Origin: Candidatus Parcubacteria bacterium
Lineage (GTDB): Bacteria > Patescibacteriota > Patescibacteriia > PEXW01
Reading direction: 5' to 3'
Length of the DNA stretch: 64,000 nt
Assembly (NCBI GenBank): GCA_003597955.1
Contig: QZJU01000021.1
Coordinates: 44,880 to 108,879, forward strand
Of this stretch, positions 1 through 63,524 are shown one piece after another. How positions within the stretch are numbered: the stretch's first letter is position 1; each line of letters begins with the position of its first letter. A program made the translations under genes and the position numbers. The notes beneath the pieces are model-generated. The model had not been told where the DNA came from, searched no databases, and saw nothing but the letters and a program-made list of their open reading frames with translations.

Positions 1-1027
1 GCCCTGCCGCGATGAGAATCAAGAAGCGGCATACATTGCCCAGCGGGTTTTGGAATTCCAGGCCACGGGCATGAAATTAGCCGAGATTGCGGTTTTGGTA
101 AGGGCCGTAAGCCATACCCAGGCGATTGAATTTGAACTGGCCAAGCGCGAAATCCCGTACCTGGTTCGCGGTGGTTTGCGGTTTTTTGAAAGGGCGCATA
201 TAAAGGATGTGGTTTCTCACCTAAAAATTTTGGCCAACCCCAATGACGAAGTCGCCTGGTTGCGGGCTTTGGGTTTGCAGGTCGGCGTTGGTCCGAAAAC
301 CGCCACCGAGGTTTTTTTAAGGTTACAAGAAAAGAATATTGGGGTTAAAGAATTGGCCAAAGTTAACTTTACGGAATTAGTCGACCGCCGCGCCAACCGG
401 GGCATAGAAATTTTTCAAAAAACCTTGCGCTTAATGCTGGTCGCCGGCTATAAGGATAAAAAAACCGGGGAAACCGTTTTCGCCCCCCAAGATTTAATTA
501 GGATTATTGCCACCAGCGATTATGTGGATTATTTGCGGAGCCAATATCCGAACGCTGACGAAAGGCTGCAGGACTTGGAGCAGCTGGCCTTGTTTGCGGG
601 AAAATACAAGTCTTTGAATTCTTTTTTGGCGGATGTCAGTTTGCAGGAAGCATTTAGCGCGGGCGCGGCAGTTTCGGCCGAAAACGATGACGCGCTTATC
701 TTATCCACCGTGCATCAAGCCAAAGGCCTTGAATGGGAAGCGGTTTTCGTGCCGCGTTTGACCGAGGGCGGCTTCCCTAATGCGCGGGCCTTGGATGAGC
801 CTATGGGCATTGAAGAAGAACGGCGACTTTTTTACGTAGCGGTCACGCGCGCTAAAACTTGGCTGACTTTGACTTACCCGCTTTTGCTAAATCCCGCTGG
901 CTCGATGATTCTGACTCGGCCGTCCAGGTTCATTGAAGAAGTTCCGGAAAGCCAACTGGATCGGGTTGAGATTGAAGAAGAAGCTTTTGGCGAATGGGAC
1001 GGCACTGAACGCATTATTCAAATCTAA
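1..1027 (+). CDS. UvrD/PcrA-family DNA helicase, C-terminal portion. The 5' end is cut by the window edge; the frame is open from nt 2.
   Basis: The translation contains LILSTVHQAKGLEWEAVFVP and RLFYVAVTRAK, the helicase motif VI region of UvrD-like proteins. Upstream in-frame residues ENQEAAYIAQRV continue the same protein. Confidence 0.8.
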   Translation, partial: PCRDENQEAAYIAQRVLEFQATGMKLAEIAVLVRAVSHTQAIEFELAKREIPYLVRGGLRFFERAHIKDVVSHLKILANPNDEVAWLRALGLQVGVGPKTATEVFLRLQEKNIGVKELAKVNFTELVDRRANRGIEIFQKTLRLMLVAGYKDKKTGETVFAPQDLIRIIATSDYVDYLRSQYPNADERLQDLEQLALFAGKYKSLNSFLADVSLQEAFSAGAAVSAENDDALILSTVHQAKGLEWEAVFVPRLTEGGFPNARALDEPMGIEEERRLFYVAVTRAKTWLTLTYPLLLNPAGSMILTRPSRFIEEVPESQLDRVEIEEEAFGEWDGTERIIQI

Positions 1028-1691: not shown

Positions 1692-2978
1692 ATGCCTACC
1701 CACAAAACTCAAGATTTATTTGATCAAAGATTGGAAAAAGAATTCGGACGCCACGCGCCCTTGGCCGACCGGATGCGGCCGGAAAAACTGGAGGATTTTT
1801 TCGGCCAAACGGAGATAATCGGCCAGGGCAAGCTGTTGCGCCAAGCCATTGAAAACGACGAAATTTTTTCCATAATTTTCTGGGGGCCGCCGGGCAGCGG
1901 CAAAACCACTTTAGCCAGGATTATCGCCAAACTGACCAAGTCGCATTTTGAACAAATTTCGGCCGTAACTTCGGGCCTGGCGGATTTACGGGCGTTGGTC
2001 AAGCAGGCGCTGGAGAGGCGGAAGTTCCAGAATTTACGGACCATTCTTTTTGTGGATGAAATTCATCGCTGGAACAAAGCCCAGCAGGATTCATTTTTGC
2101 CTTATGTGGAAAACGGCACCATTACTTTAATAGGCGCCACCACAGAAAACCCGTCTTTTGAAGTGATTTCGCCGCTGCTTTCCCGCGCCCGGGTTTTTGT
2201 TTTGGAAAGGCTGGGCGTTCCGGAATTATCCAGAATTGTGAAGCGCGCTTTATTGGATAAAGAAAGAGGTTTGGGCAAGGAAAAAATTAAGCTTGAGGCC
2301 AAGGGCATAGATGTTTTATTGGCCGGATCAAACGGCGATGCCCGGACTTTATTAAATGCTCTGGAAATCGCGGTCAAAGCCACAGCCAAAGACGCAAAAG
2401 GCGTTAAACATATTAAAACCCAGACCGTGGAAGAAGCTTTGCAGCACAAAGCTTTAATGTTCGATAAAAAAGGCGAAGAGCATTACAATGTGATTTCGGC
2501 TTTCATTAAATCCATGCGCGGGTCAGATCCGGACGCGAGCTTGTATTGGTTGAATCGTTTGGTGGAGGCCGGGGAAGATCCGGAATTCATTGCCCGGCGC
2601 ATGGTGGTTTTTGCTTCGGAAGATGTGGGCTTGGCTGATCCAAATGCGCTTGCCGTGGCCGTGAATGTTTTTCAAGCCGTGAAGCTAATCGGCTATCCCG
2701 AATGCCAGATAAATTTGGCTCACGGCGTGGTTTACTTGGCATTAACTCCGAAAAACAACACGGCCTATATGGGCTTAATGAACGCCAAGCAAGACGTGAA
2801 AGATACTTTAAATGAGCCCGTGTCTTTGCATTTGCGCAACGCGGTCACGGATTTGATGAAAGATTTGGGCTATCACAAAGGTTATAAATACAGCCATGAT
2901 TATGATAAAGAGGAGGGTAAACAGGAATATTTGCCAAAGAAATTAGTAGGTCGGAAGTATTTTTTTCCAAAAAAATGA
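1692..2978 (+). CDS. rarA: Replication-associated recombination protein A (RarA/MgsA AAA+ ATPase).
   Basis: Walker A GPPGSGKTTLARIIA and the downstream RarA-specific regions are present. The ORF track start at 1653 is probably an N-terminal extension. Confidence 0.85.
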   Translation: MPTHKTQDLFDQRLEKEFGRHAPLADRMRPEKLEDFFGQTEIIGQGKLLRQAIENDEIFSIIFWGPPGSGKTTLARIIAKLTKSHFEQISAVTSGLADLRALVKQALERRKFQNLRTILFVDEIHRWNKAQQDSFLPYVENGTITLIGATTENPSFEVISPLLSRARVFVLERLGVPELSRIVKRALLDKERGLGKEKIKLEAKGIDVLLAGSNGDARTLLNALEIAVKATAKDAKGVKHIKTQTVEEALQHKALMFDKKGEEHYNVISAFIKSMRGSDPDASLYWLNRLVEAGEDPEFIARRMVVFASEDVGLADPNALAVAVNVFQAVKLIGYPECQINLAHGVVYLALTPKNNTAYMGLMNAKQDVKDTLNEPVSLHLRNAVTDLMKDLGYHKGYKYSHDYDKEEGKQEYLPKKLVGRKYFFPKK

Positions 2979-3523
2979 AATTGCCGCGGTTTAACGAAGC
3001 AGGTTATGCGCATTTTGTTACGTCTAAAACCTATAAAAGCCGAAAAGTTTTTGACAATAAAGAGTGTTGTGAAATTCTGGTTGAGGATTTGAACTTTTAT
3101 GCAAAGAAGTTAAATTTTGAAATTTTAGGTTATTGCGTGATGCCGGAACACCTTCATTTAATTGTGCAGTGGGATGCGGAGAAACATCCGAAATTAACAA
3201 TTTCGAAAATAATGCAAGCGATAAAAAACCATTCTGCAAAAGAAATCGCTTTTTATTTAAAAACGGGTAGGCGAAAGCCCTCGCTTTCGCCATATTCAAA
3301 AGACGCGAGCGAGGGCTCGCGTCTACCCGCGAACTATAAATGGCTTGATCGTGGTTTAGTCCATACTAATTCGCTTGTAAAAATCTGGCAAGCCTCATTC
3401 TACGACTTCAACATTTATTCGGAAAGAATTCTTAACCAAAAATACACCTACATTTATTACAACCCGGTCCGCGCGGGCTTGTGTGAAAAGCCCGAGGATT
3501 GGCCGTGGACTTCCATCAAATAA
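2975..3523 (+). CDS. IS200-like / REP-associated tyrosine transposase (RAYT) family HuH-Y1 protein.
   Basis: HuH motif VMPEHLHLIV and the C-terminal WQASFYDF...YIYYNPVRAGL signature of Y1 transposase-like proteins. It carries a 21-aa low-complexity insertion encoded by a palindromic DNA doublet. Confidence 0.75.
   Translation: MKLPRFNEAGYAHFVTSKTYKSRKVFDNKECCEILVEDLNFYAKKLNFEILGYCVMPEHLHLIVQWDAEKHPKLTISKIMQAIKNHSAKEIAFYLKTGRRKPSLSPYSKDASEGSRLPANYKWLDRGLVHTNSLVKIWQASFYDFNIYSERILNQKYTYIYYNPVRAGLCEKPEDWPWTSIK
3265..3328. repeat. REPIN-like palindromic doublet lying inside the RAYT-like ORF.
   Basis: GGGTAG-GCGAAAGC-CCTC-GCTTTCGC ... GACGCGAGC-GAGG-GCTCGCGTC-TACCC. These are two inverted hairpins with outer GTAG/CTAC arms, and the two hairpins are partly complementary to each other. 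Confidence 0.55.
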
Positions 3524-41600: not shown

Positions 41601-42789
41601 CATACATTGGCGCGCTTGGGTTATTCGGGTCAACCCAATTGTCGATATTGACATTGCACCGACCAGCCAAGACTGCGATATCAAAAGTACCGTTGCTGGC
41701 AGAGGTGGCATTACCATTAACGCCAGGTTGCGGGCCCATATTGTTGGTGGAACCCAAAGGCATACACCAAGCGTTAATCCTGACATTGCCAACAGGCGTG
41801 CCGCTGCCGTCAACTAGCGTGCCGGTGATGTGCGCGGTTTTTTCTTTTACGGCAAAGTTGGCAGTAGCCGTTTGTCCGTCTGTAACGCTCACAATAGCGG
41901 AGGTGGCGGTTAAGTTCTGATTTTCATTATTCCAGTAACTGACATTAAAGGTTCCGGCAGGCACGCGCATGGAATAAGAACCGCCCACAACTTGAGCGTT
42001 GCCGCCACCGCCCGGGCCCATGGTTGACCACGCATTCATGTTTCCACTGGTAACCGGCGCGCCAGTACTGGCGTAGGTCACTGTGCCGGTGATAGTGGCC
42101 GTGGCTTTAGTGACTTGGAAATTCACGGTCCGAGTTTCAGCGGAATTGTCATTCGTGAATGTTACATCATAAGGTGGTTCGTTGTAGGACCAATCAGCCC
42201 CTGCGGGCGGCGTAAGATTAAGACCGTATTTGGAACTGGCCGCGAGAGTGAGCGTGTAATTGCCGTTTGCGTCAGTTGTAGCGTTGCCGCCCCCGGGATT
42301 AAAGTATGACCAGCTATTTACGATTGCGCCGACTACGGGCGTGGAAGTGCCCCGGTAGGTAATCGTGCCGGTAATAGTTTTGGGCGGTACGGTTAAATTC
42401 AGATTTTTATTAGTGACGTCCGTGTTAACCGTGAACGGCGCTGAAACCGCGCGCGTGAGACCGGATTGGGAATAATCCGGCATGGCTTCTAAAATGTAGG
42501 TTCCGGGAAAGACGCCAGCGATTGAGTAATTACCGTTTTCCCCAGGGTTTATCCATCGGCCGTAGTGGTAAAGGTGGTCGGTTGTGTATAAATCGACCTG
42601 AACATTGACGGCCGGCGTGACACCGTCAGGGCGATATATTGTGCCGCTGACCGTGTAAGTGTCTTGAGCTAAAGCCTTAAGAGGGTTAAAAAGTGAGCTT
42701 ATGCCAGAACCGAAAGGCAAACCGGTTATGGCCAAAATAGTCAATATGCCAAATAAGCGTTTGATTATTTTGAAAGGTTTTTTACGCAT
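38617..42789 (-). CDS. Large (1390-aa) secreted or surface repetitive protein with tandem Cys4 modules.
   Basis: N-terminal signal peptide. Beta-rich T/N/G/S repeats. Two tandem modules of about 34 aa (PGGCK-x4-C-x2-FCSK...EC-x-KFGP) near residues 700-770. Confidence 0.65.
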   Translation of the reverse strand: MRKKPFKIIKRLFGILTILAITGLPFGSGISSLFNPLKALAQDTYTVSGTIYRPDGVTPAVNVQVDLYTTDHLYHYGRWINPGENGNYSIAGVFPGTYILEAMPDYSQSGLTRAVSAPFTVNTDVTNKNLNLTVPPKTITGTITYRGTSTPVVGAIVNSWSYFNPGGGNATTDANGNYTLTLAASSKYGLNLTPPAGADWSYNEPPYDVTFTNDNSAETRTVNFQVTKATATITGTVTYASTGAPVTSGNMNAWSTMGPGGGGNAQVVGGSYSMRVPAGTFNVSYWNNENQNLTATSAIVSVTDGQTATANFAVKEKTAHITGTLVDGSGTPVGNVRINAWCMPLGSTNNMGPQPGVNGNATSASNGTFDIAVLAGRCNVNIDNWVDPNNPSAPMYVSSAMIPEVILETDTSSAAIGNVVVVKADATIRVTVKDEAGNTVNGINGWVWAQKAGAQEFGPGQNYGGSLNPDGIAIIKLPSSVFSLVQLGMHMPPESEYSVSDVGATVAIAANSTTDATLTLVKNNSSIYGSLVDVNGIPLTKCTPPAGQFSFGEVFVHNPAKGGRNTMFKEDCSYRISVVAGKYYFNYHFADGSGLLNSNPAPDPIEVKAGQSIVKNITALIGDGKVNVQVLGSNGAPIPNAWVDIGNEIEVFNRAGGPGPEGPKNLQSQEFKDKNGKKGDPFQICQTARKKNDKKQIELCKKTALPGIAQGPGGCKNVMACVDFCSKKANQAECGKFKGPSTAPGKVQVGPGGCKTETECKAFCSKPENEQECMKFGPPEGQMTGASFFKGKVKGESTDKANQAMGGPANAQDMKNILHVGGQTDRNGNASITVLTGHKYEVRANPQPGSPDMPAKSQIIDLTSAKTANVTLAFRQADAKIKGRVAGGGPFGFCHGWEETGNFSGGEVRNGAYEINVSKGVWHIGCDSAWDNNFARSEEITIVVDGSQKTITQDFRLDANSNFRLPAPFSTTFDATQAQSIILEDGTSITAGASAFATQGNITLTATPTANLMSMSTAKPAWYGYEFKALNSSGAEITKFNSNVTITFKYTDKMLEGAGVDESALLPKYFDETSNTWKSPSNVTQDLENNTITVLSDHFSKHSLVTNASAKALKAVTKGTGKNKGSFTVNKKTIKAFPGTNINVATANYGSKTGQWIFVSPAEKLKSGKSVIKVYSTSGKLVKTLEPYKNYKGSISLLLADLTKDGKSDLTVGKEAPNTEVKVYNAAKKFASYKIATGATRSSSVKVTTLEAHQAGLASLAILTQTRNRNDVKVFKFGKKGFQEDLALSENSPRIKISGSNVSLVVLKPKVSKVTGTLSTANATAKLTLKGENFASGIVVTVGGKATTVKYKNSKEIQLTIDGTQLTKGKKTIKVVNLDGGVGTSSVTVR

Positions 42790-43020
42790 ATTTTATTCGT
42801 TAATAAAAAATAACCCAACGCCGCCGACAAACGGCGCGAGGAAAATTAAAGAAAAAGCTTGATGAATTTTTAGGTTTTTTATCGCTCATTTAATAAGCCG
42901 AAGCTGGCTTAAACTGAGGATTAACTTAAAATTAACTATAACAAACTAAGCCCAGCCTTGACAAGTTAAGCCAGAAATCAATTATTTTGGACAATTAATC
43001 TGTAGGCGCCTGAATTTTTT

Positions 43021-43154
43021 AACATCGATCACCACCGGCAAAATCACCCTGTACCATTAAAGGGTACGGGATGAGAATAGTCGAAAAGCCTGTTTAGACA
43101 AGCGTAAAAACTTAATTTAATTAAACATCAATTACCACTGGCAAGATCATTGGG
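43021..43154. repeat. Imperfect ~30-bp direct repeat duplicating the rnj 3' end, flanking a GTACC-type hairpin.
   Basis: Copy B (43123-43154) is the rnj C-terminus (...RRPMILPVVIDV*). Copy A (43021-43052) would encode RVILPVVIDVKK. The hairpin CACCCTGTACC-attaaa-GGGTACGGG at 43045-43070 lies between them. Confidence 0.5.
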
Positions 43155-44839
43155 CGTCGGTTGGTTTTATTAAAGAAGTATTGGCCCAATTCATCACGGA
43201 TTTTATTACCGATATAGGCGTCATTTGCCTCGGTATGGCTTTTTTTATCTTTAAAAAAGGTTTTGACGCGTTTTCTAGTTTCTTCAATCAAGGCCTTGCT
43301 GGTTTTGATGTGCACAAAACCGCGAGTAATGATGTCAGGCTCGCCAATGATATTGCCCGTGTGCCGATCAACATTAACAATCACTACGACCATACCGTCA
43401 GCGGCCAGCATTTGTCGGTCGCGCAAGACCACATTGGAAACATCGCCGACGCCTAAGCCGTCGACAAAGACATAATCAGTTACAGCTTTTTGGTTAAGGA
43501 GTTTGGGCTGGCCATGGGTGAATTCCAGAATCGCACCGTTGTCCAGCACAAAAATTTTTTCCCGGGGGAAGCCTTCGCGAACCGCTAATTTTTCCGCTTC
43601 TTTGTGGAAATAGTGGTTGGCGTAAACCGGCAAAAAATAAGTCGGCCGGATTTGCTTGAGCACGGTTTTCATGTCTTCGGCCGTGCTGTGACCGCTGGAA
43701 TGAATATCCATAATATCGCTGTGGATGACGTTATCGCTGACGCGATAAAGATTGTCTTTCAACCTTTGGATGGTGCGTTCATTGCCTGGAATGATTGAAG
43801 ACGAAAAAACAATAGTGTCGGTTTTTTGAATGCGGACGAAGCGATGGTTTCGGTTGATGATGCGGGAAAGCACGGCATTGCTTTCGCCCTGCGCGCCCGT
43901 GCATATGATGACGATTTTCCGGTCCGGATAATCGCGGATTCTTTCGATGGGAATTAAGGTTTCTTTTTTGATTTTTATGTAACCCAAGCGTTTAGCGGTT
44001 TCCACATTCATTTTCATACTAAAGCCGTCCAAGGCCACTCTTTTGCCGATTTTTTCACAAAACTCCAGGACGTATTTGATTCTTGCCACCTGGGAAGAAA
44101 AAGTGCCGATGATGATGCGGCCGGGCGCTTCACGAATCAGCTTTTCCAAATTGCCGTACATGGTTTTTTCCGTCACGCGATTATGGGTATGGGTCGCGCC
44201 CAGGCTCTCCAGCATTAAAATTGTGGGCTTGGGCAAGCGTGCCAGCTTGGAATATTCCACCGATTGCCGGCCCACCGGATCTTTTTCATAAGTCCAGTCG
44301 CCCGGGTGTATGACCGTGCCGTGGGGGGTGTTAAGAATAACGCCCATGGCATCCATTATTGAATGATCAACTGGGAAAAACCCAACCGAAAAATTTCCCA
44401 GGCGCAGGCGATCGTTGACTGATTTTACCGTAATAGTTTTTAGCCTCTGACTTGAGCCTTTTTTGTAATCTTCCTGCCGGTTTTTAATCAAGGCTAAAGT
44501 TAAAGGCCGGCCAATTATGCTCGGATTGCCCAGTTTTTCCAGCAGAATCGGTGCCGCACCAATATGGTCTAAATGGCCGTGGGTGAAGATTACACCCCGC
44601 ACCTTGGCTTCCTTGCCCTTTAAATAACTGATGTTAGGAATTATGTAATCAATTCCCAGCATGTCTTCTTCGGGGAATTGCACGCCCATATCCACAACAA
44701 CAATATCGTCCTTATATTCAAAGATGGTCATGTTGCGGCCAACTTCCTCTTGGCCGCCGACAGGAATAATTCTTAAACTGTCAGCCGGTTTGAGGCCTTG
44801 GAAGCTCTTGAATTTTTTAGGATTTTTATATTTTTTCAT
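43121..44839 (-). CDS. rnj: Ribonuclease J (beta-CASP metallo-beta-lactamase).
   Basis: HxHxDH motif (THGHLDHIG) and beta-CASP and C-terminal domains. The start is placed at MKKYKNP so the gene does not overlap the NUDIX gene. Confidence 0.88.
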   Translation of the reverse strand: MKKYKNPKKFKSFQGLKPADSLRIIPVGGQEEVGRNMTIFEYKDDIVVVDMGVQFPEEDMLGIDYIIPNISYLKGKEAKVRGVIFTHGHLDHIGAAPILLEKLGNPSIIGRPLTLALIKNRQEDYKKGSSQRLKTITVKSVNDRLRLGNFSVGFFPVDHSIMDAMGVILNTPHGTVIHPGDWTYEKDPVGRQSVEYSKLARLPKPTILMLESLGATHTHNRVTEKTMYGNLEKLIREAPGRIIIGTFSSQVARIKYVLEFCEKIGKRVALDGFSMKMNVETAKRLGYIKIKKETLIPIERIRDYPDRKIVIICTGAQGESNAVLSRIINRNHRFVRIQKTDTIVFSSSIIPGNERTIQRLKDNLYRVSDNVIHSDIMDIHSSGHSTAEDMKTVLKQIRPTYFLPVYANHYFHKEAEKLAVREGFPREKIFVLDNGAILEFTHGQPKLLNQKAVTDYVFVDGLGVGDVSNVVLRDRQMLAADGMVVVIVNVDRHTGNIIGEPDIITRGFVHIKTSKALIEETRKRVKTFFKDKKSHTEANDAYIGNKIRDELGQYFFNKTNRRPMILPVVIDV

Positions 44840-44843
44840 ATTT

Positions 44844-45284
44844 TTATTTTTGATTTTTCTTGAAACGGATAAAAGCTTTAATGGTTTTGTCATAAGTTTC
44901 GGCAAGATTTTTCTTTAGAGCTTGATCCGGCGCCACCCATAAATATTTGTTTAATTCACGGGTTTCCAACCTTATTCGTCCGCCTTTGGTGCGGCAGTAA
45001 ATATCAAAATAAATAAAATGGGCCGGACGGTAAAAGTCCTTAGAATTTATCAGTTCGCCCCAGGCGACAATCGCAATCGCTTTTAACTTTAAACCCGTTT
45101 CTTCTTGGGCTTCCCGAATTTGAGAGGTCAGAATGTTTTCACCGGGTTCCAGGTGTCCGCCCGGCAGAGTCCATTTGTTATGCCATTTTTGGGAGCGCAC
45201 CAGAAGAATTTGTCCTTTTGGATTCTCAATAATTGCTGAACCGACAACTTCAATACCTTTAGTAAACTTGAGGTTTTTTTTCAT
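44844..45284 (-). CDS. NUDIX hydrolase.
   Basis: Nudix box GGHLEPGENILTSQIREAQEETGL. Confidence 0.75.
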   Translation of the reverse strand: MKKNLKFTKGIEVVGSAIIENPKGQILLVRSQKWHNKWTLPGGHLEPGENILTSQIREAQEETGLKLKAIAIVAWGELINSKDFYRPAHFIYFDIYCRTKGGRIRLETRELNKYLWVAPDQALKKNLAETYDKTIKAFIRFKKNQK

Positions 45285-62832: not shown

Positions 62833-63390
62833 TTAGATTGTGGTTGAAGGGTTTCTTAAGATCTCAATGGCGTTTTCAAGAATTTGCCAGAGCTGATCTG
62901 GCATGGGAATTTTGTGGCTGCAGGTTTGCAGAGGGAGGGTCAAGAATTTAAAGATCCGCTTTTGGGAAAACTGGTGGGTTTGTTCAAATTCCTTCGGCGC
63001 AATTCGGCTGATGCACACTCGGGTTTTGTGGCACAGCGGGCAGAAATTGGCGAAAATTTTACTTTGGCCCTTAACCAAACCCACGTAAATTACCAGCCTT
63101 TGATTCTTTAGCGGATTGAGGACGACATATTCCTCCAAATGCATTTTAACGGCATAGCCAAGCCAGCGCAGCTGCTCTTCGACGGCATCCTGCCAGCACG
63201 CGTAAGCTTGCGGGTTGTTGGGAAAATTTTTTACCAGCCAGGCTTTTGACATCGTGGCCAAAAGCTGCGGCTCATTCAGAATGCTCTGAATGTGAGTGCT
63301 TGCCAGAATTTCCAAAGCGGTTTTAAAGTCTTTGCCGCCATGGCTGATGGGGATCCTGGCCTGACCACCAAAAAAGTTTTCCTCCATTTT
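62833..63390 (-). CDS. Hypothetical protein.
   Basis: ORF of about 185 aa from MEENFFGG. No confident family assignment. Confidence 0.45.
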   Translation of the reverse strand, partial: KMEENFFGGQARIPISHGGKDFKTALEILASTHIQSILNEPQLLATMSKAWLVKNFPNNPQAYACWQDAVEEQLRWLGYAVKMHLEEYVVLNPLKNQRLVIYVGLVKGQSKIFANFCPLCHKTRVCISRIAPKEFEQTHQFSQKRIFKFLTLPLQTCSHKIPMPDQLWQILENAIEILRNPSTTI

Positions 63391-63481
63391 TAATCTGACC
63401 TCCGAGTTGCTTTTAGGTGCATTGTTGAAGTTAGTTTTGATTTTCAAATTGGTATATTAGCAAATCCATGTCTTTTGTCAA

Positions 63482-63524
63482 CCCCGTACCACCCTGTACC
63501 ATTTCGGTGCAGGGTGGTACGGGG
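63482..63524. repeat. Perfect 15-bp-stem palindrome (GTACC family).
   Basis: CCCCGTACCACCCTG-taccatttcggtg-CAGGGTGGTACGGGG. Confidence 0.6.

What the first reader, a model, noticed from the sequence alone, without database searches (positions are those of the whole stretch)
43021..43154. Duplicated rnj 3' end flanking a GTACC-type hairpin; a larger relative of the hairpin lies at 63482-63524
The last nine codons of rnj (43123-43154) recur in diverged form 100 nt downstream (43021-43052, which would encode RVILPVVIDVKK). Between the copies sits the hairpin CACCCTGTACC-attaaa-GGGTACGGG. At 63482-63524 there is a perfect 15-bp-stem palindrome containing the same CACCCTGTACCATT...GGTACGGGG sequence, so the two are members of one repeat family. 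This looks like a small palindromic element that inserted at the rnj terminus with a target duplication and later decayed. Just upstream, 42958-42983 carries a promoter-like GCCTTGACAAGTT box.
Basis: seen in the sequence. Interest (0 to 1): 0.6.

Follow-up and report, generated by a model that had tools for sequence, protein, structure and literature searches.

The report
Split rnj end with spare terminus
The end of the essential RNase J gene of this tiny (CPR/Patescibacteria) bacterium is split by a small hairpin-bearing insert that carries a spare copy of the last nine codons. The same trick is seen at three other core genes of the genome, which points to a repeat-element process that can invade essential genes without killing them.

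Summary
The last nine rnj codons (43121-43150, minus strand) recur at 43021-43047, with 22/27 bases identical (0 of 20000 shuffles). Between them lie a 50-nt spacer and a GC-rich hairpin (43047-43070).

It is not private decay. The two other species of the genus have the same junction, a 47-50 nt spacer, a larger hairpin with one compensatory pair, and a downstream copy that keeps its own stop. Other genera lack it.

All six variable sites among the three downstream copies are synonymous third positions, so this copy is not drifting neutrally.

The hairpin stem (CCCYGYACC) is the building block of a genome-wide REP/REPIN-like family. That family has about 31 elements of about 105 bp, about 10 palindromes of 43 bp including 63482-63524, and about 20 single hairpins. 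A RAYT transposase gene lies in this window. The family's own flanks are 4-bp TTGA-type repeats, not 30-bp duplications.

The same hairpin type joins duplicated termini of fusA and lepA, and its arms bracket the 5S rRNA gene, which has partial copies outside them.

Best reading: a hairpin-bounded insertion-duplication that supplies a spare gene terminus. How the unit forms, and why the leftover copy stays codon-conserved, is unresolved.

The parts
43121..44905 (-). rnj (RNase J) ORF. The true start may lie at a later ATG.
   Evidence: TIGR00649, 478 bits; Pfam RNase_J_C.
43121..43150 (-). Copy 1: the last nine codons plus the TAA stop of the working gene (MILPVVIDV*).
43071..43120 (-). 50-nt spacer. 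Its sequence is unconserved but its length is kept (47-50 nt) in the three species.
43047..43070 (.). GC-rich hairpin of the CCCYGYACC family. It probably serves as the rnj terminator or 3' stabiliser. In this genome it is shortened by a 19-nt loop deletion and a 1-nt bulge.
   Evidence: The stem changes T:A to C:G between L002 and L003.
43021..43047 (-). Downstream copy ('relic') of the last nine codons, (V)ILPVVIDV. It abuts the foot of the hairpin. Its stop codon is lost here (AAA at 43018-43020) but kept (TAG) in both sister species.
42935..42964 (-). Promoter-like site, TTGTCA-18-TATAGT, facing the downstream 1390-aa gene.
   Evidence: This is a consensus match only and is not above chance.
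63482..63524 (.). 43-bp REPIN-like palindrome with TCAA on both flanks. It abuts the -35 hexamer of a minus-strand promoter-like site (TTGACA-16-TAATAT) and lies between divergent genes.
2975..3523 (+). REP-associated tyrosine transposase (RAYT) gene, a candidate mobiliser of the hairpin family. It is not flanked by the hairpins.
   Evidence: NF047646, 113 bits, cut-off 80.

Best explanation
The 134-bp feature is a split gene end. A block of about 75 nt lies between two copies of the last nine rnj codons. The block is a 50-nt spacer plus a GC-rich hairpin of the genome's REP/REPIN-like CCCYGYACC family.

The copy attached to the gene body finishes the working RNase J. The copy that abuts the hairpin foot is the original end, left behind. 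In one sister species it still sits just upstream of a canonical CCCCC...GGGGGTTTT terminator, much like the terminator that follows rnj a short way downstream of its stop in other genera.

The layout is shared by all three known species of the genus and is absent from the other genera examined.

It is one instance of a recurrent process tied to this hairpin family. Equivalent joints occur at the 5' ends of fusA and lepA, and hairpin arms bracket a 5S rRNA gene that has partial copies outside them. In rnj, fusA and lepA the order is the same: leftover copy, hairpin foot, short spacer, then the working copy and the gene body.

Proposed mechanism (inferred): DNA carrying a hairpin next to a gene terminus is joined at the foot of the hairpin to a site a few codons inside the resident copy of the same gene. 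The incoming DNA could be a relative's allele taken up by the cell, or a hairpin unit processed by the genome's RAYT/HUH enzyme. Such an event survives in an essential gene only because the incoming piece brings a complete spare terminus.

Today the hairpin most likely serves as the rnj terminator or 3' stabiliser (inferred).

Shown: the anatomy, its age and distribution, the family membership of the stem, the parallel cases, and the codon-like conservation of the leftover copy. Inferred: the joining mechanism, the source of the new DNA, and the terminator role.
For: Anatomy and statistics of the repeat.

Same junction, spacer length and hairpin in G002 and G001 and in three metagenome contigs. 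No second copy in 17 other genomes.

After the leftover copy, G002 keeps CTCCCCCAAG...CTTGGGGGTTTTCT, like the terminators that follow rnj in genera g2 and g3.

Stem covariation, CCCTGTACC/GGTACAGGG against CCCCGTACC/GGTACGGGG. Hairpin energies are -27.5 and -31.1 kcal/mol (z = -3.2 and -4.8).

The repeat family. The RAYT genes.

Parallel cases:
- fusA: 25 codons duplicated, with the hairpin at the joint and the leftover copy in the native 5' context. Its GC3 of 0.56 is like the rest of the gene, while the working copy has 0.24.
- lepA: the same hairpin at the same joint in G000, G002, G004 and G010, which span 3 genera.
- 5S rRNA.

A genome-wide scan found no other local peptide duplications of this kind.

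Synonymous divergence of the working rnj rises towards the joint only in the genus that has it. The last 9 codons give 0.67-0.78 against 0.40-0.44 for the whole gene. Controls from other genera give 0.45 against 0.40. This fits a separate history for the terminal piece.
Against: No enzyme is tied to the events. The three RAYT-like genes are not flanked by these hairpins. No DDE transposase was found.

The family's ordinary insertions make 4-bp TTGA-type flanks, not duplications of 27-75 nt.

A passive leftover copy should have decayed. Instead, 0 of 18 first and second codon positions changed in three lineages, while third positions diverged 0.44-0.56. Gene conversion from the working copy is excluded for rnj, because within-genome similarity is no higher than between-genome similarity.

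Only three lineages carry the rnj structure, so mobility cannot be shown.

The 5S case has the spacer between the arm and the leftover piece, which is a different order. The terminator scan did not call the hairpin.
Confidence: 0.55

Rival explanations
1. A small palindromic MITE inserted at the rnj terminus, made a target-site duplication of about 30 bp, and has since been decaying.
For: Direct repeats flank a hairpin whose stem matches a genuine repeat family. Empty sites exist in other genera. In this genome the hairpin has a deletion and the leftover copy has lost its stop.
Against: The family's flanks are 4 bp (TTGA, TCAA or TTTA). The rnj hairpin lacks the CCCCGCACCAC termini. The hairpin sits at one end of the insert only. 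The stem and the leftover copy are conserved across three species, with only synonymous change. That is not decay.
Confidence: 0.1
2. A single ancient in-place tandem duplication arose by slippage between the terminator's T-tract and the similar rnj codons ATGATTTTGCC. The extra copy has since been kept because it is translated. It could be a nine-codon mini-ORF starting at the conserved GTG, or it could be reached by post-termination ribosomes. Its product would mimic the C-terminal strand of RNase J.
For: All 6 variable sites among the three downstream copies are synonymous third positions (hypergeometric 84/296010). Its third-position rate equals that of the gene. GTG is conserved as its first codon. 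GGAGG-like purine runs lie 9-11 nt upstream in L002 and L003. In L003 a second GGTACAGGTGTTTTAGG lies 28 nt past the copy's stop, as a second repeat unit would leave. The antisense frames are closed.
Against: This lineage shows little Shine-Dalgarno use at the genes examined. The GTG sits at the foot of a stable stem. In this genome the purine run is deleted and the stop is lost. The frame relative to rnj differs between species (+1, +1, +2). No function is known for a 9-residue peptide. A tandem duplication does not fit fusA or lepA, where no hairpin precedes the leftover copy.
Confidence: 0.2
3. This is programmed recoding. Ribosomes would hop from the last Val codon plus stop of rnj over the spacer and hairpin to the matching GTG, as in T4 gene 60 or the mitochondrial 'byp' elements.
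For: The take-off codon (GTT or GTG followed by a stop) and the landing GTG are both Val in all three species, with a hairpin in the gap.
Against: The gap is 76-94 nt, longer than known hops. The hairpin is at the landing side, not the take-off side. The product would merely repeat the last eight residues. This reading cannot explain fusA or lepA.
Confidence: 0.03
4. The feature is a chance resemblance or an assembly artefact.
For: None beyond the short length of the repeat.
Against: 0 of 20000 shuffles reached the observed match. The same structure is present in two other genomes and three independent metagenome contigs.
Confidence: 0.01

Closest known systems
REP / REPIN elements with RAYT (REP-associated tyrosine transposase), e.g. 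in Pseudomonas and E. coli (PMC3116915, PMC5581495)
   Same: Both have short GC-rich imperfect palindromes, mostly between genes, in many copies. Both occur as singlets and as inverted doublets of about 40-110 bp. RAYT genes are present; one in this window scores 113 bits against NF047646.
   Different: The RAYT genes here are not flanked by the repeats. There is no 5' GTAG. The doublets have TTGA-type 4-bp flanks and often abut -35 hexamers. To my knowledge, REPINs have not been reported to split gene ends with a duplicated terminus.
Integrative elements that rebuild the gene they interrupt: e14 and phage 21 in icd, SXT/R391 in the 5' end of prfC, islands in trmE or dusA (own knowledge; see also 10.1101/2021.06.18.448947)
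   Same: The incoming DNA supplies a replacement gene terminus that differs mainly at synonymous sites, and the original terminus is left as a fragment. prfC, like fusA and lepA, encodes a translational GTPase that is hit at its 5' end.
   Different: Those elements are 10-100 kb, carry an integrase and have att sites. Here the whole insert is 75-135 bp, has no gene, and its joint lies at a hairpin foot.
Rickettsia palindromic elements (RPE), in-frame insertions in coding genes (own knowledge)
   Same: Palindromic repeats are tolerated inside coding sequence. One 45-nt hairpin sits in frame inside the lepA leftover ORF.
   Different: RPEs are translated as part of the working protein. Here the working protein is kept free of the insert by a duplicated terminus.
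IS200/IS605 'peel and paste' transposition and its non-autonomous derivatives (PMC6006769)
   Same: Both involve hairpin-recognising Y1/HUH enzymes, joints at a fixed distance from a hairpin, and no classical target duplication.
   Different: No TnpA/TnpB element with these ends is assembled. There is only one hairpin per unit. The carried gene fragment has no precedent.
Translational bypass elements: T4 gene 60 and mitochondrial byps (own knowledge)
   Same: A GC-rich hairpin-forming insert lies within coding sequence, flanked by matching codons.
   Different: Here whole terminal segments are duplicated and the working ORF needs no bypass.

Membership tests
REP/REPIN-RAYT system | Many copies of a short GC-rich palindrome, mostly extragenic | tested here: met
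   CCCYGYACC occurs 122 times against 19.6 expected. There are about 91 hairpin or doublet loci.
REP/REPIN-RAYT system | A RAYT (Y1/HUH) gene in the genome | tested here: met
   NF047646, 113 bits against a cut-off of 80, for window 2975-3523. Two further PF01797 hits.
REP/REPIN-RAYT system | The RAYT gene is flanked by its REPs | tested here: not met
   300 nt on each side of all three genes show only ordinary terminators.
REP/REPIN-RAYT system | The rnj hairpin itself carries the family stem | tested here: met
   The stems in L002 and L003 are identical to the inner and outer arms of the 63482 palindrome. A CAAG 3' flank is shared with the single-hairpin subfamily.
MITE (terminal inverted repeats plus target-site duplication) | Inverted termini and a short flanking direct repeat | tested here: met
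   This holds for the 101-112 bp elements and the 43-bp palindromes. They have 17-19 bp termini, CCCCGCACCACTTTCCA, and TTGA, TCAA or TTTA flanks.
MITE (terminal inverted repeats plus target-site duplication) | The rnj insert has those termini and flanks | tested here: not met
   It has no CCCCGCACCAC termini. The hairpin is at one end only. The flanking repeat is 27-30 nt.
MITE (terminal inverted repeats plus target-site duplication) | An autonomous partner with the same ends | tested here: inconclusive
   No DDE_Tnp_1 or DDE_Tnp_4 match. Unassembled repeats sit at contig ends, and one has a CCCCGCAC...GTGCGGGG hairpin.
Integrative element that restores the target gene end | A duplicated gene terminus with synonymous differences | tested here: met
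   For rnj, 4-7 of 9 third positions differ and no others do. For fusA, 21 of 75 nt differ with 1 amino-acid change.
Integrative element that restores the target gene end | An integrase and cargo between the repeats | tested here: not met
   Only 73-94 nt lie between the rnj copies.
Intrinsic terminator | A GC-rich stem followed by a U-tract, at the end of the transcript | tested here: inconclusive
   The stem is present and is followed by UGAUUUUG (UGAUAUUG in L002). The scan did not call it because of the bulge. Transcript ends cannot be tested here.
Translational bypass (gene 60 type) | Matching take-off and landing codons, a stop after take-off, and a hairpin at take-off | tested here: not met
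   The Val codons match and a stop follows the take-off codon. However, the hairpin lies at the landing side and the gap is 76-94 nt.

The most novel reading that the evidence does not exclude
The spacer, hairpin and spare gene end together form a tiny non-autonomous mobile unit. It would be mobilised by the RAYT/HUH enzyme or spread by DNA uptake, and it would home into conserved termini of essential genes (rnj, fusA, lepA, 5S rRNA).

Lineages would alternate between occupied and empty states, so both the carried copy and the resident copy of the terminus serve as the real gene end at different times. This would explain three things:
- both copies evolve like coding sequence;
- the working rnj end has a steeper synonymous divergence than the rest of the gene;
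- the lepA unit is patchily spread over three genera, with a hairpin that is 42/43 identical between two of them.
Probability: 0.25. Interest if true: 0.85.

Novelty: new variant of a known kind. Interest (0 to 1): 0.62.

Why it matters
Repeat elements of the REP/REPIN type are regarded as residents of intergenic space. Insertion into an essential gene is normally lethal.

Here a hairpin family in a reduced CPR genome sits inside the terminal codons of RNase J, EF-G and LepA, and next to 5S rRNA. Each time it comes with a duplicated terminus that keeps the gene whole.

If this is a regular process, it is a new way for very small elements to use the most conserved sites of a genome as safe harbours. 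It would also rewire expression. A new terminator would sit after rnj. Upstream ORFs would end in ATGA overlaps with the lepA start.

The leftover rnj end has been conserved at the codon level across three species, and no standard neutral model explains this. The question is directly testable with transcript-end mapping, ribosome profiling and population metagenomics.

Tried and rejected
- Antisense coding of the leftover copy: the antisense frame whose third positions coincide has no start codon and is closed by a stop in L002.
- Frameshift read-through from rnj: the frames differ (+1, +1, +2), and in this genome the path has three stops.
- Gene conversion keeping the copy intact: for rnj, the within-genome third-position match (about 3 of 8) is no higher than the between-genome match, by my count on the sequences. 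Conversion or recent origin does fit lepA, where the leftover copy is 36/37 identical to the working copy of the same genome in G000 and 47/48 in G010.
- DGR template/variable repeat: the differences are not adenine-specific and the repeat is too short.
- CRISPR-like or guide-like reading: the copy has the same sense as the gene, occurs only twice per genome, and no array is present.
- Known RNA families: nothing in Rfam for 42500-43500 down to E = 10.
- Shine-Dalgarno evidence for a mini-ORF: suggestive in L002 and L003 only, and the lineage seems to use little Shine-Dalgarno.
- Simple tandem duplication for fusA and lepA: no hairpin or spacer lies upstream of the leftover copies, which sit in the native context.
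- Mosaic test along rnj: 50-codon windows gave no sharp breakpoint. Only the gradient towards the 3' end appeared.
- The same gradient test on lepA: uninformative because of saturation.
- Rearrangement at the rnj end: I first thought the loss of an adjacent trpS marked one. The downstream leader is in fact conserved in g1, g2 and g3.
- RNAalifold on the three hairpins: MAFFT misaligned this genome's shortened 5' arm, so the pair counts are not used.

Full report
**What is at the site**

The window is G000:C2:44880-108879 of a 990-kb, 21-contig genome. The nearest named RNase J proteins are from Patescibacteria. rnj occupies 43121..44905 on the minus strand and ends RRPMILPVVIDV*. Reading down the rnj strand, the order is:
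- copy 1 (43150-43121): ATG ATC TTG CCA GTG GTA ATT GAT GTT TAA;
- a 50-nt spacer (43120-43071);
- a hairpin (43070-43047);
- directly at the hairpin foot, GTG ATT TTG CCG GTG GTG ATC GAT GTT (43047-43021), followed by AAA AAA.

The repeat is 22/27 identical. None of 20000 shuffles of the intergenic region reached that. The hairpin folds at -14.3 kcal/mol, z = -3.8. Four of the five differences between the copies are third codon positions. The fifth (ATG to GTG) is the base that also closes the stem.

**It is old and shared**

RNase J was found in all 31 relatives searched. A second C-terminal motif downstream of rnj exists only in the three genomes of the genus, G000, G002 and G001. It also appears in three metagenome contigs that are the same species as G002 and G001.

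All three species have the same joint, TGGTAC[A/G]GG|GTGAT, a spacer of 47-50 nt whose sequence is not conserved, and a hairpin. In the two sister species the hairpin is larger (-27.5 and -31.1 kcal/mol), and the downstream copy ends in its own TAG. This genome has a 19-nt deletion in the loop and a 1-nt deletion in the 5' arm, and it has lost that stop.

The stem reads CCCTGTACC/GGTACAGGG in G002 and CCCCGTACC/GGTACGGGG in G001. This is a change on both sides that keeps the pair. In the other genera of the family, rnj is followed by other small repeats and a CCCCCGCC...GGCGGGGGTTTTGG terminator, or directly by trpS. G002 still has such a terminator 16 nt after the downstream copy once a repeat-element insertion is discounted. 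This is why I read the downstream copy as the original gene end, and the upstream copy, spacer and hairpin as the newer DNA.

**The leftover copy is not drifting**

Among the three orthologous downstream copies, six sites vary. All six are third codon positions and all are synonymous (84/296010 by the hypergeometric; sequences). Their third-position divergence (4-5 of 9) equals that of rnj as a whole (0.42-0.47). Yet 0 of 18 first and second positions changed, which at a neutral rate of 0.44 is about 3e-5 per pair.
- The antisense frames are closed.
- The frame relative to rnj differs between species, so frameshifting is out.
- Similarity between the two copies within a genome is no higher than between genomes, so gene conversion is out for rnj.
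- The sequence occurs only twice per genome.

This leaves two options. Either there is direct selection on the copy, for instance because it is translated. Or the copies were real gene ends until recently in each lineage.

In favour of a separate history for the working end, its synonymous divergence rises towards the joint:
- last 9 codons: 0.67-0.78;
- last 25 codons: 0.55-0.71;
- whole gene: 0.40-0.44.

In nine genomes without the duplication the profile is flat, at 0.45, 0.42 and 0.40.

**The hairpin family**

The 14-mer shared with 63482-63524 occurs three times in the genome. The 63482 element is one of about ten 43-bp palindromes, CCCCGYACCACCCTGYACC-loop-GGTRCAGGGTGGTRCGGGG. Their outer 11 bases are also the termini of about 31 elements of 101-112 bp, with the ends CCCCGCACCACTTTCCA...TGGAAAGTGGTGCGGGG. 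About 20 single hairpins use the same stem. CCCYGYACC occurs 122 times against 19.6 expected.

The doublets are flanked by 4-bp repeats. Of 124 outward-reading ends, 24 are followed by TTGA, 21 by TCAA, 13 by TAAA and 8 by TTTA. Of 25 ends followed by a TTGACA-like hexamer, 14 have a -10-like hexamer 16-18 nt further on, against 7% for all such hexamers in the genome. The 63482 copy is one of these. It abuts a TTGACA-16-TAATAT site that faces the gene at 62833..63447.

The termini also occur in genus g2, and one copy has inserted 6 nt after the leftover rnj copy in G002.

The genome has three Y1/HUH genes. The one in this window (2975-3523) meets NCBI's REP-associated tyrosine transposase model. 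None of the three is flanked by the repeats. No DDE transposase was found.

This is a REP/REPIN-like system. The rnj hairpin belongs to its single-hairpin branch: on the opposite strand it carries the CAAG flank of that branch in G002 and G001. It does not belong to the TTGA-flanked doublets.

**The same joint elsewhere**

Looking at what lies next to the single hairpins turned up three more cases.

fusA (G000:C16, L030):
- The native 5' leader and the first 25 codons ([25 protein letters not shown]) run straight into a hairpin, CCCCGCACCAG...TTGCGGGG.
- A 30-nt spacer follows, carrying an in-frame TAA. Three bases later the complete gene starts with the same 25 residues.
- 21 of 75 bases differ, with one amino-acid change.
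- The duplication is absent from G001, G002 and nine others.
- The leftover copy has the codon composition of the rest of the gene (GC3 0.56 against 0.52-0.68). It is closer to orthologues (0.32-0.44) than the working copy is (GC3 0.24; 0.48-0.80).
- It carries an A-to-T change in the otherwise invariant AHIDAGK motif.
- Here the leftover copy is clearly the native end, and the working end has another history.

lepA (G000:C8, L049):
- Five bases after the stop of the upstream gene comes ATG...IRNFCI.
- A 45-nt hairpin is then inserted in frame, followed by (V)AHIDH.
- Next come the hairpin CCGCGCACCAATCGTTCCGCTCGAGCGGAACTCTGGTGCGGGG, a 28-nt spacer, and the complete gene.
- The same hairpin at the same joint (GACCAC|CCGCGCACC) and the same spacing occurs in G002, G004 and G010, which span three genera. 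It was not found in the other eight genomes of the family, nor in about 390 others of the class.
- In G002, G004 and G010 the leftover ORF stays open through the hairpin or hairpins and stops in an ATGA overlap with the real start. This suggests translational coupling.
- Here the leftover copy is nearly identical to the working copy of the same genome (47/48 in G010, 36/37 in G000). So conversion or recent origin applies, unlike rnj.

5S rRNA (L078):
- The gene is bracketed by CCCCGCACC and GGTGCGGGG arms.
- Partial copies of its two ends lie outside the arms.

A genome-wide scan for local peptide repeats and a flank comparison at 91 hairpin loci found no further cases. That makes four of about 20 single-hairpin sites. 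In rnj, fusA and lepA the order is leftover copy, hairpin foot, spacer, working copy.

**How it most likely works**

Shown:
- the joints lie at hairpin feet;
- the hairpins are one family;
- the interrupted genes are among the most conserved in the genome;
- each keeps a complete ORF through a duplicated terminus;
- where it can be judged (fusA, lepA, and rnj in G002), the leftover copy is the native one.

Inferred: DNA in which a family hairpin lies next to the gene terminus is joined, at the hairpin foot, to a point a few codons inside the resident gene. The other side is resolved by homology within the gene. The incoming DNA is either a relative's allele taken up by the cell or a unit processed by the RAYT enzyme. 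Only products that regenerate a whole gene survive.

I put about 0.55 on this core. Within it, I split roughly evenly between an imported or mobile unit and an in-place event. The hairpin followed by UGAUUUUG is the only strong structure between rnj and the next promoter-like site in this genome. The ancestral terminator has decayed here but not in G002. So a terminator role is likely, but untested.

**What remains unexplained**

The codon-like conservation of the leftover rnj copy is unexplained. I keep two explanations open:
- It is translated, either as a mini-ORF or by post-termination ribosomes. This is rival 2.
- Lineages alternate between occupied and empty states, so that it periodically serves as the real end. 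This is the novel case.

**Comparison with known systems**

The repeat family is closest to REP/REPIN-RAYT. The RAYT-flanking criterion fails, and the TTGA flanks and the association with -35 hexamers are unusual.

The gene-end rescue is closest in logic to integrative elements that rebuild icd, prfC, trmE or dusA, but here it happens without an integrase and at 1/100 of the size.

In-frame tolerance recalls the Rickettsia palindromic elements. The hairpin within coding sequence recalls bypass elements. I file the finding as a new variant of a known kind.

**Verdict**

The feature is real, conserved, and part of a recurrent pattern. Interest: 0.62.

Noticed in passing
L030:578-790 (G000:C16:27377-27586): The fusA 5' end is duplicated. 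The native leader and 25 codons run into a family hairpin. After a 30-nt spacer with an in-frame TAA, the complete gene restarts three bases later. Seen only in this genome. The working copy has GC3 of 0.24, against 0.56 for the leftover copy.
   Followed up: yes
L049:1919-2082 (G000:C8:18118-18281); also L052, L055, L066: The lepA 5' end is duplicated around a conserved 43-nt hairpin in four genomes of three genera. The leftover ORF stays open through one or two hairpins and ends in an ATGA overlap with the real start in G002, G004 and G010. The hairpin is 42/43 identical between G000 and G004, although the two are in different genera.
   Followed up: yes
L078:312-676 (G000:C2:2211-2575): The 5S rRNA gene (453-561, minus strand) is bracketed by CCCCGCACC and GGTGCGGGG arms. 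Copies of its 3' two-thirds (66 nt) and its 5' third (46 nt) lie outside the arms. A 105-bp family element lies next to it.
   Followed up: partly
Whole genome; in the window, 63454-63524: The doublet elements often abut real-looking promoters. 14 of 25 TTGACA-type flanks have a -10 hexamer at 16-18 nt, against 7% genome-wide. Either they insert into -35 hexamers (TTGA^CA) or they supply them.
   Followed up: partly
window:2975-3523 (+): A REP-associated tyrosine transposase gene (NF047646, 113 bits) overlaps the stop of the preceding ORF by 4 nt. Two further Y1_Tnp genes lie at G000:C12:14413-14661 and C17:37127-37243. None is flanked by the repeats.
   Followed up: partly
window:42790-42945 (-); L002, L004, L005, L007, L010, L012: A conserved leader lies upstream of the 1390-aa surface-protein gene. 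It has two TTGTCGGC-type motifs, ...GCTTGTCGGCT..CATGAGTGA... and CGTTTGTCGGCGGCG followed by a T-run. It is present after rnj in three genera and has no Rfam match. It may be a cis-regulatory RNA.
   Followed up: no
G000 contig ends (C5, C6, C18 starts; C7, C12, C20 ends, and others): At least four unassembled repeat families break the assembly. One, at six contig ends, has a subterminal hairpin CCCCGCAC...GTGCGGGG about 20 nt from its junction. It could be the autonomous relative of the family.
   Followed up: no
L002:~3355-3465 (G002): A family element, TCCCGCACCACTTTC...GAAAGTGGTGCGGGA with TTGA on both sides, has inserted 6 nt after the stop of the leftover rnj copy in G002 only. This shows the family was active after the species split.
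   Followed up: partly
G000:C9:7295-8278 and L024/L027/L029: In relatives with 73-77% rnj identity, a trpS-type tRNA synthetase gene follows rnj by 10-20 nt. The genus of the window has only a 35%-identical synthetase elsewhere, so the neighbour was replaced by a distant version.
   Followed up: partly
G000:C6:69837-70233: The eight residues VVGAIYLD of RNase III recur, with synonymous differences, at the N-terminus of the next gene 373 nt downstream. This is probably chance or convergence. No hairpin is involved.
   Followed up: no
G000:C6:80300-80412: Two family-type hairpins lie in tandem about 75 nt upstream of the 16S rRNA 5' end (TTGATCCTGGCTCAG).
   Followed up: no
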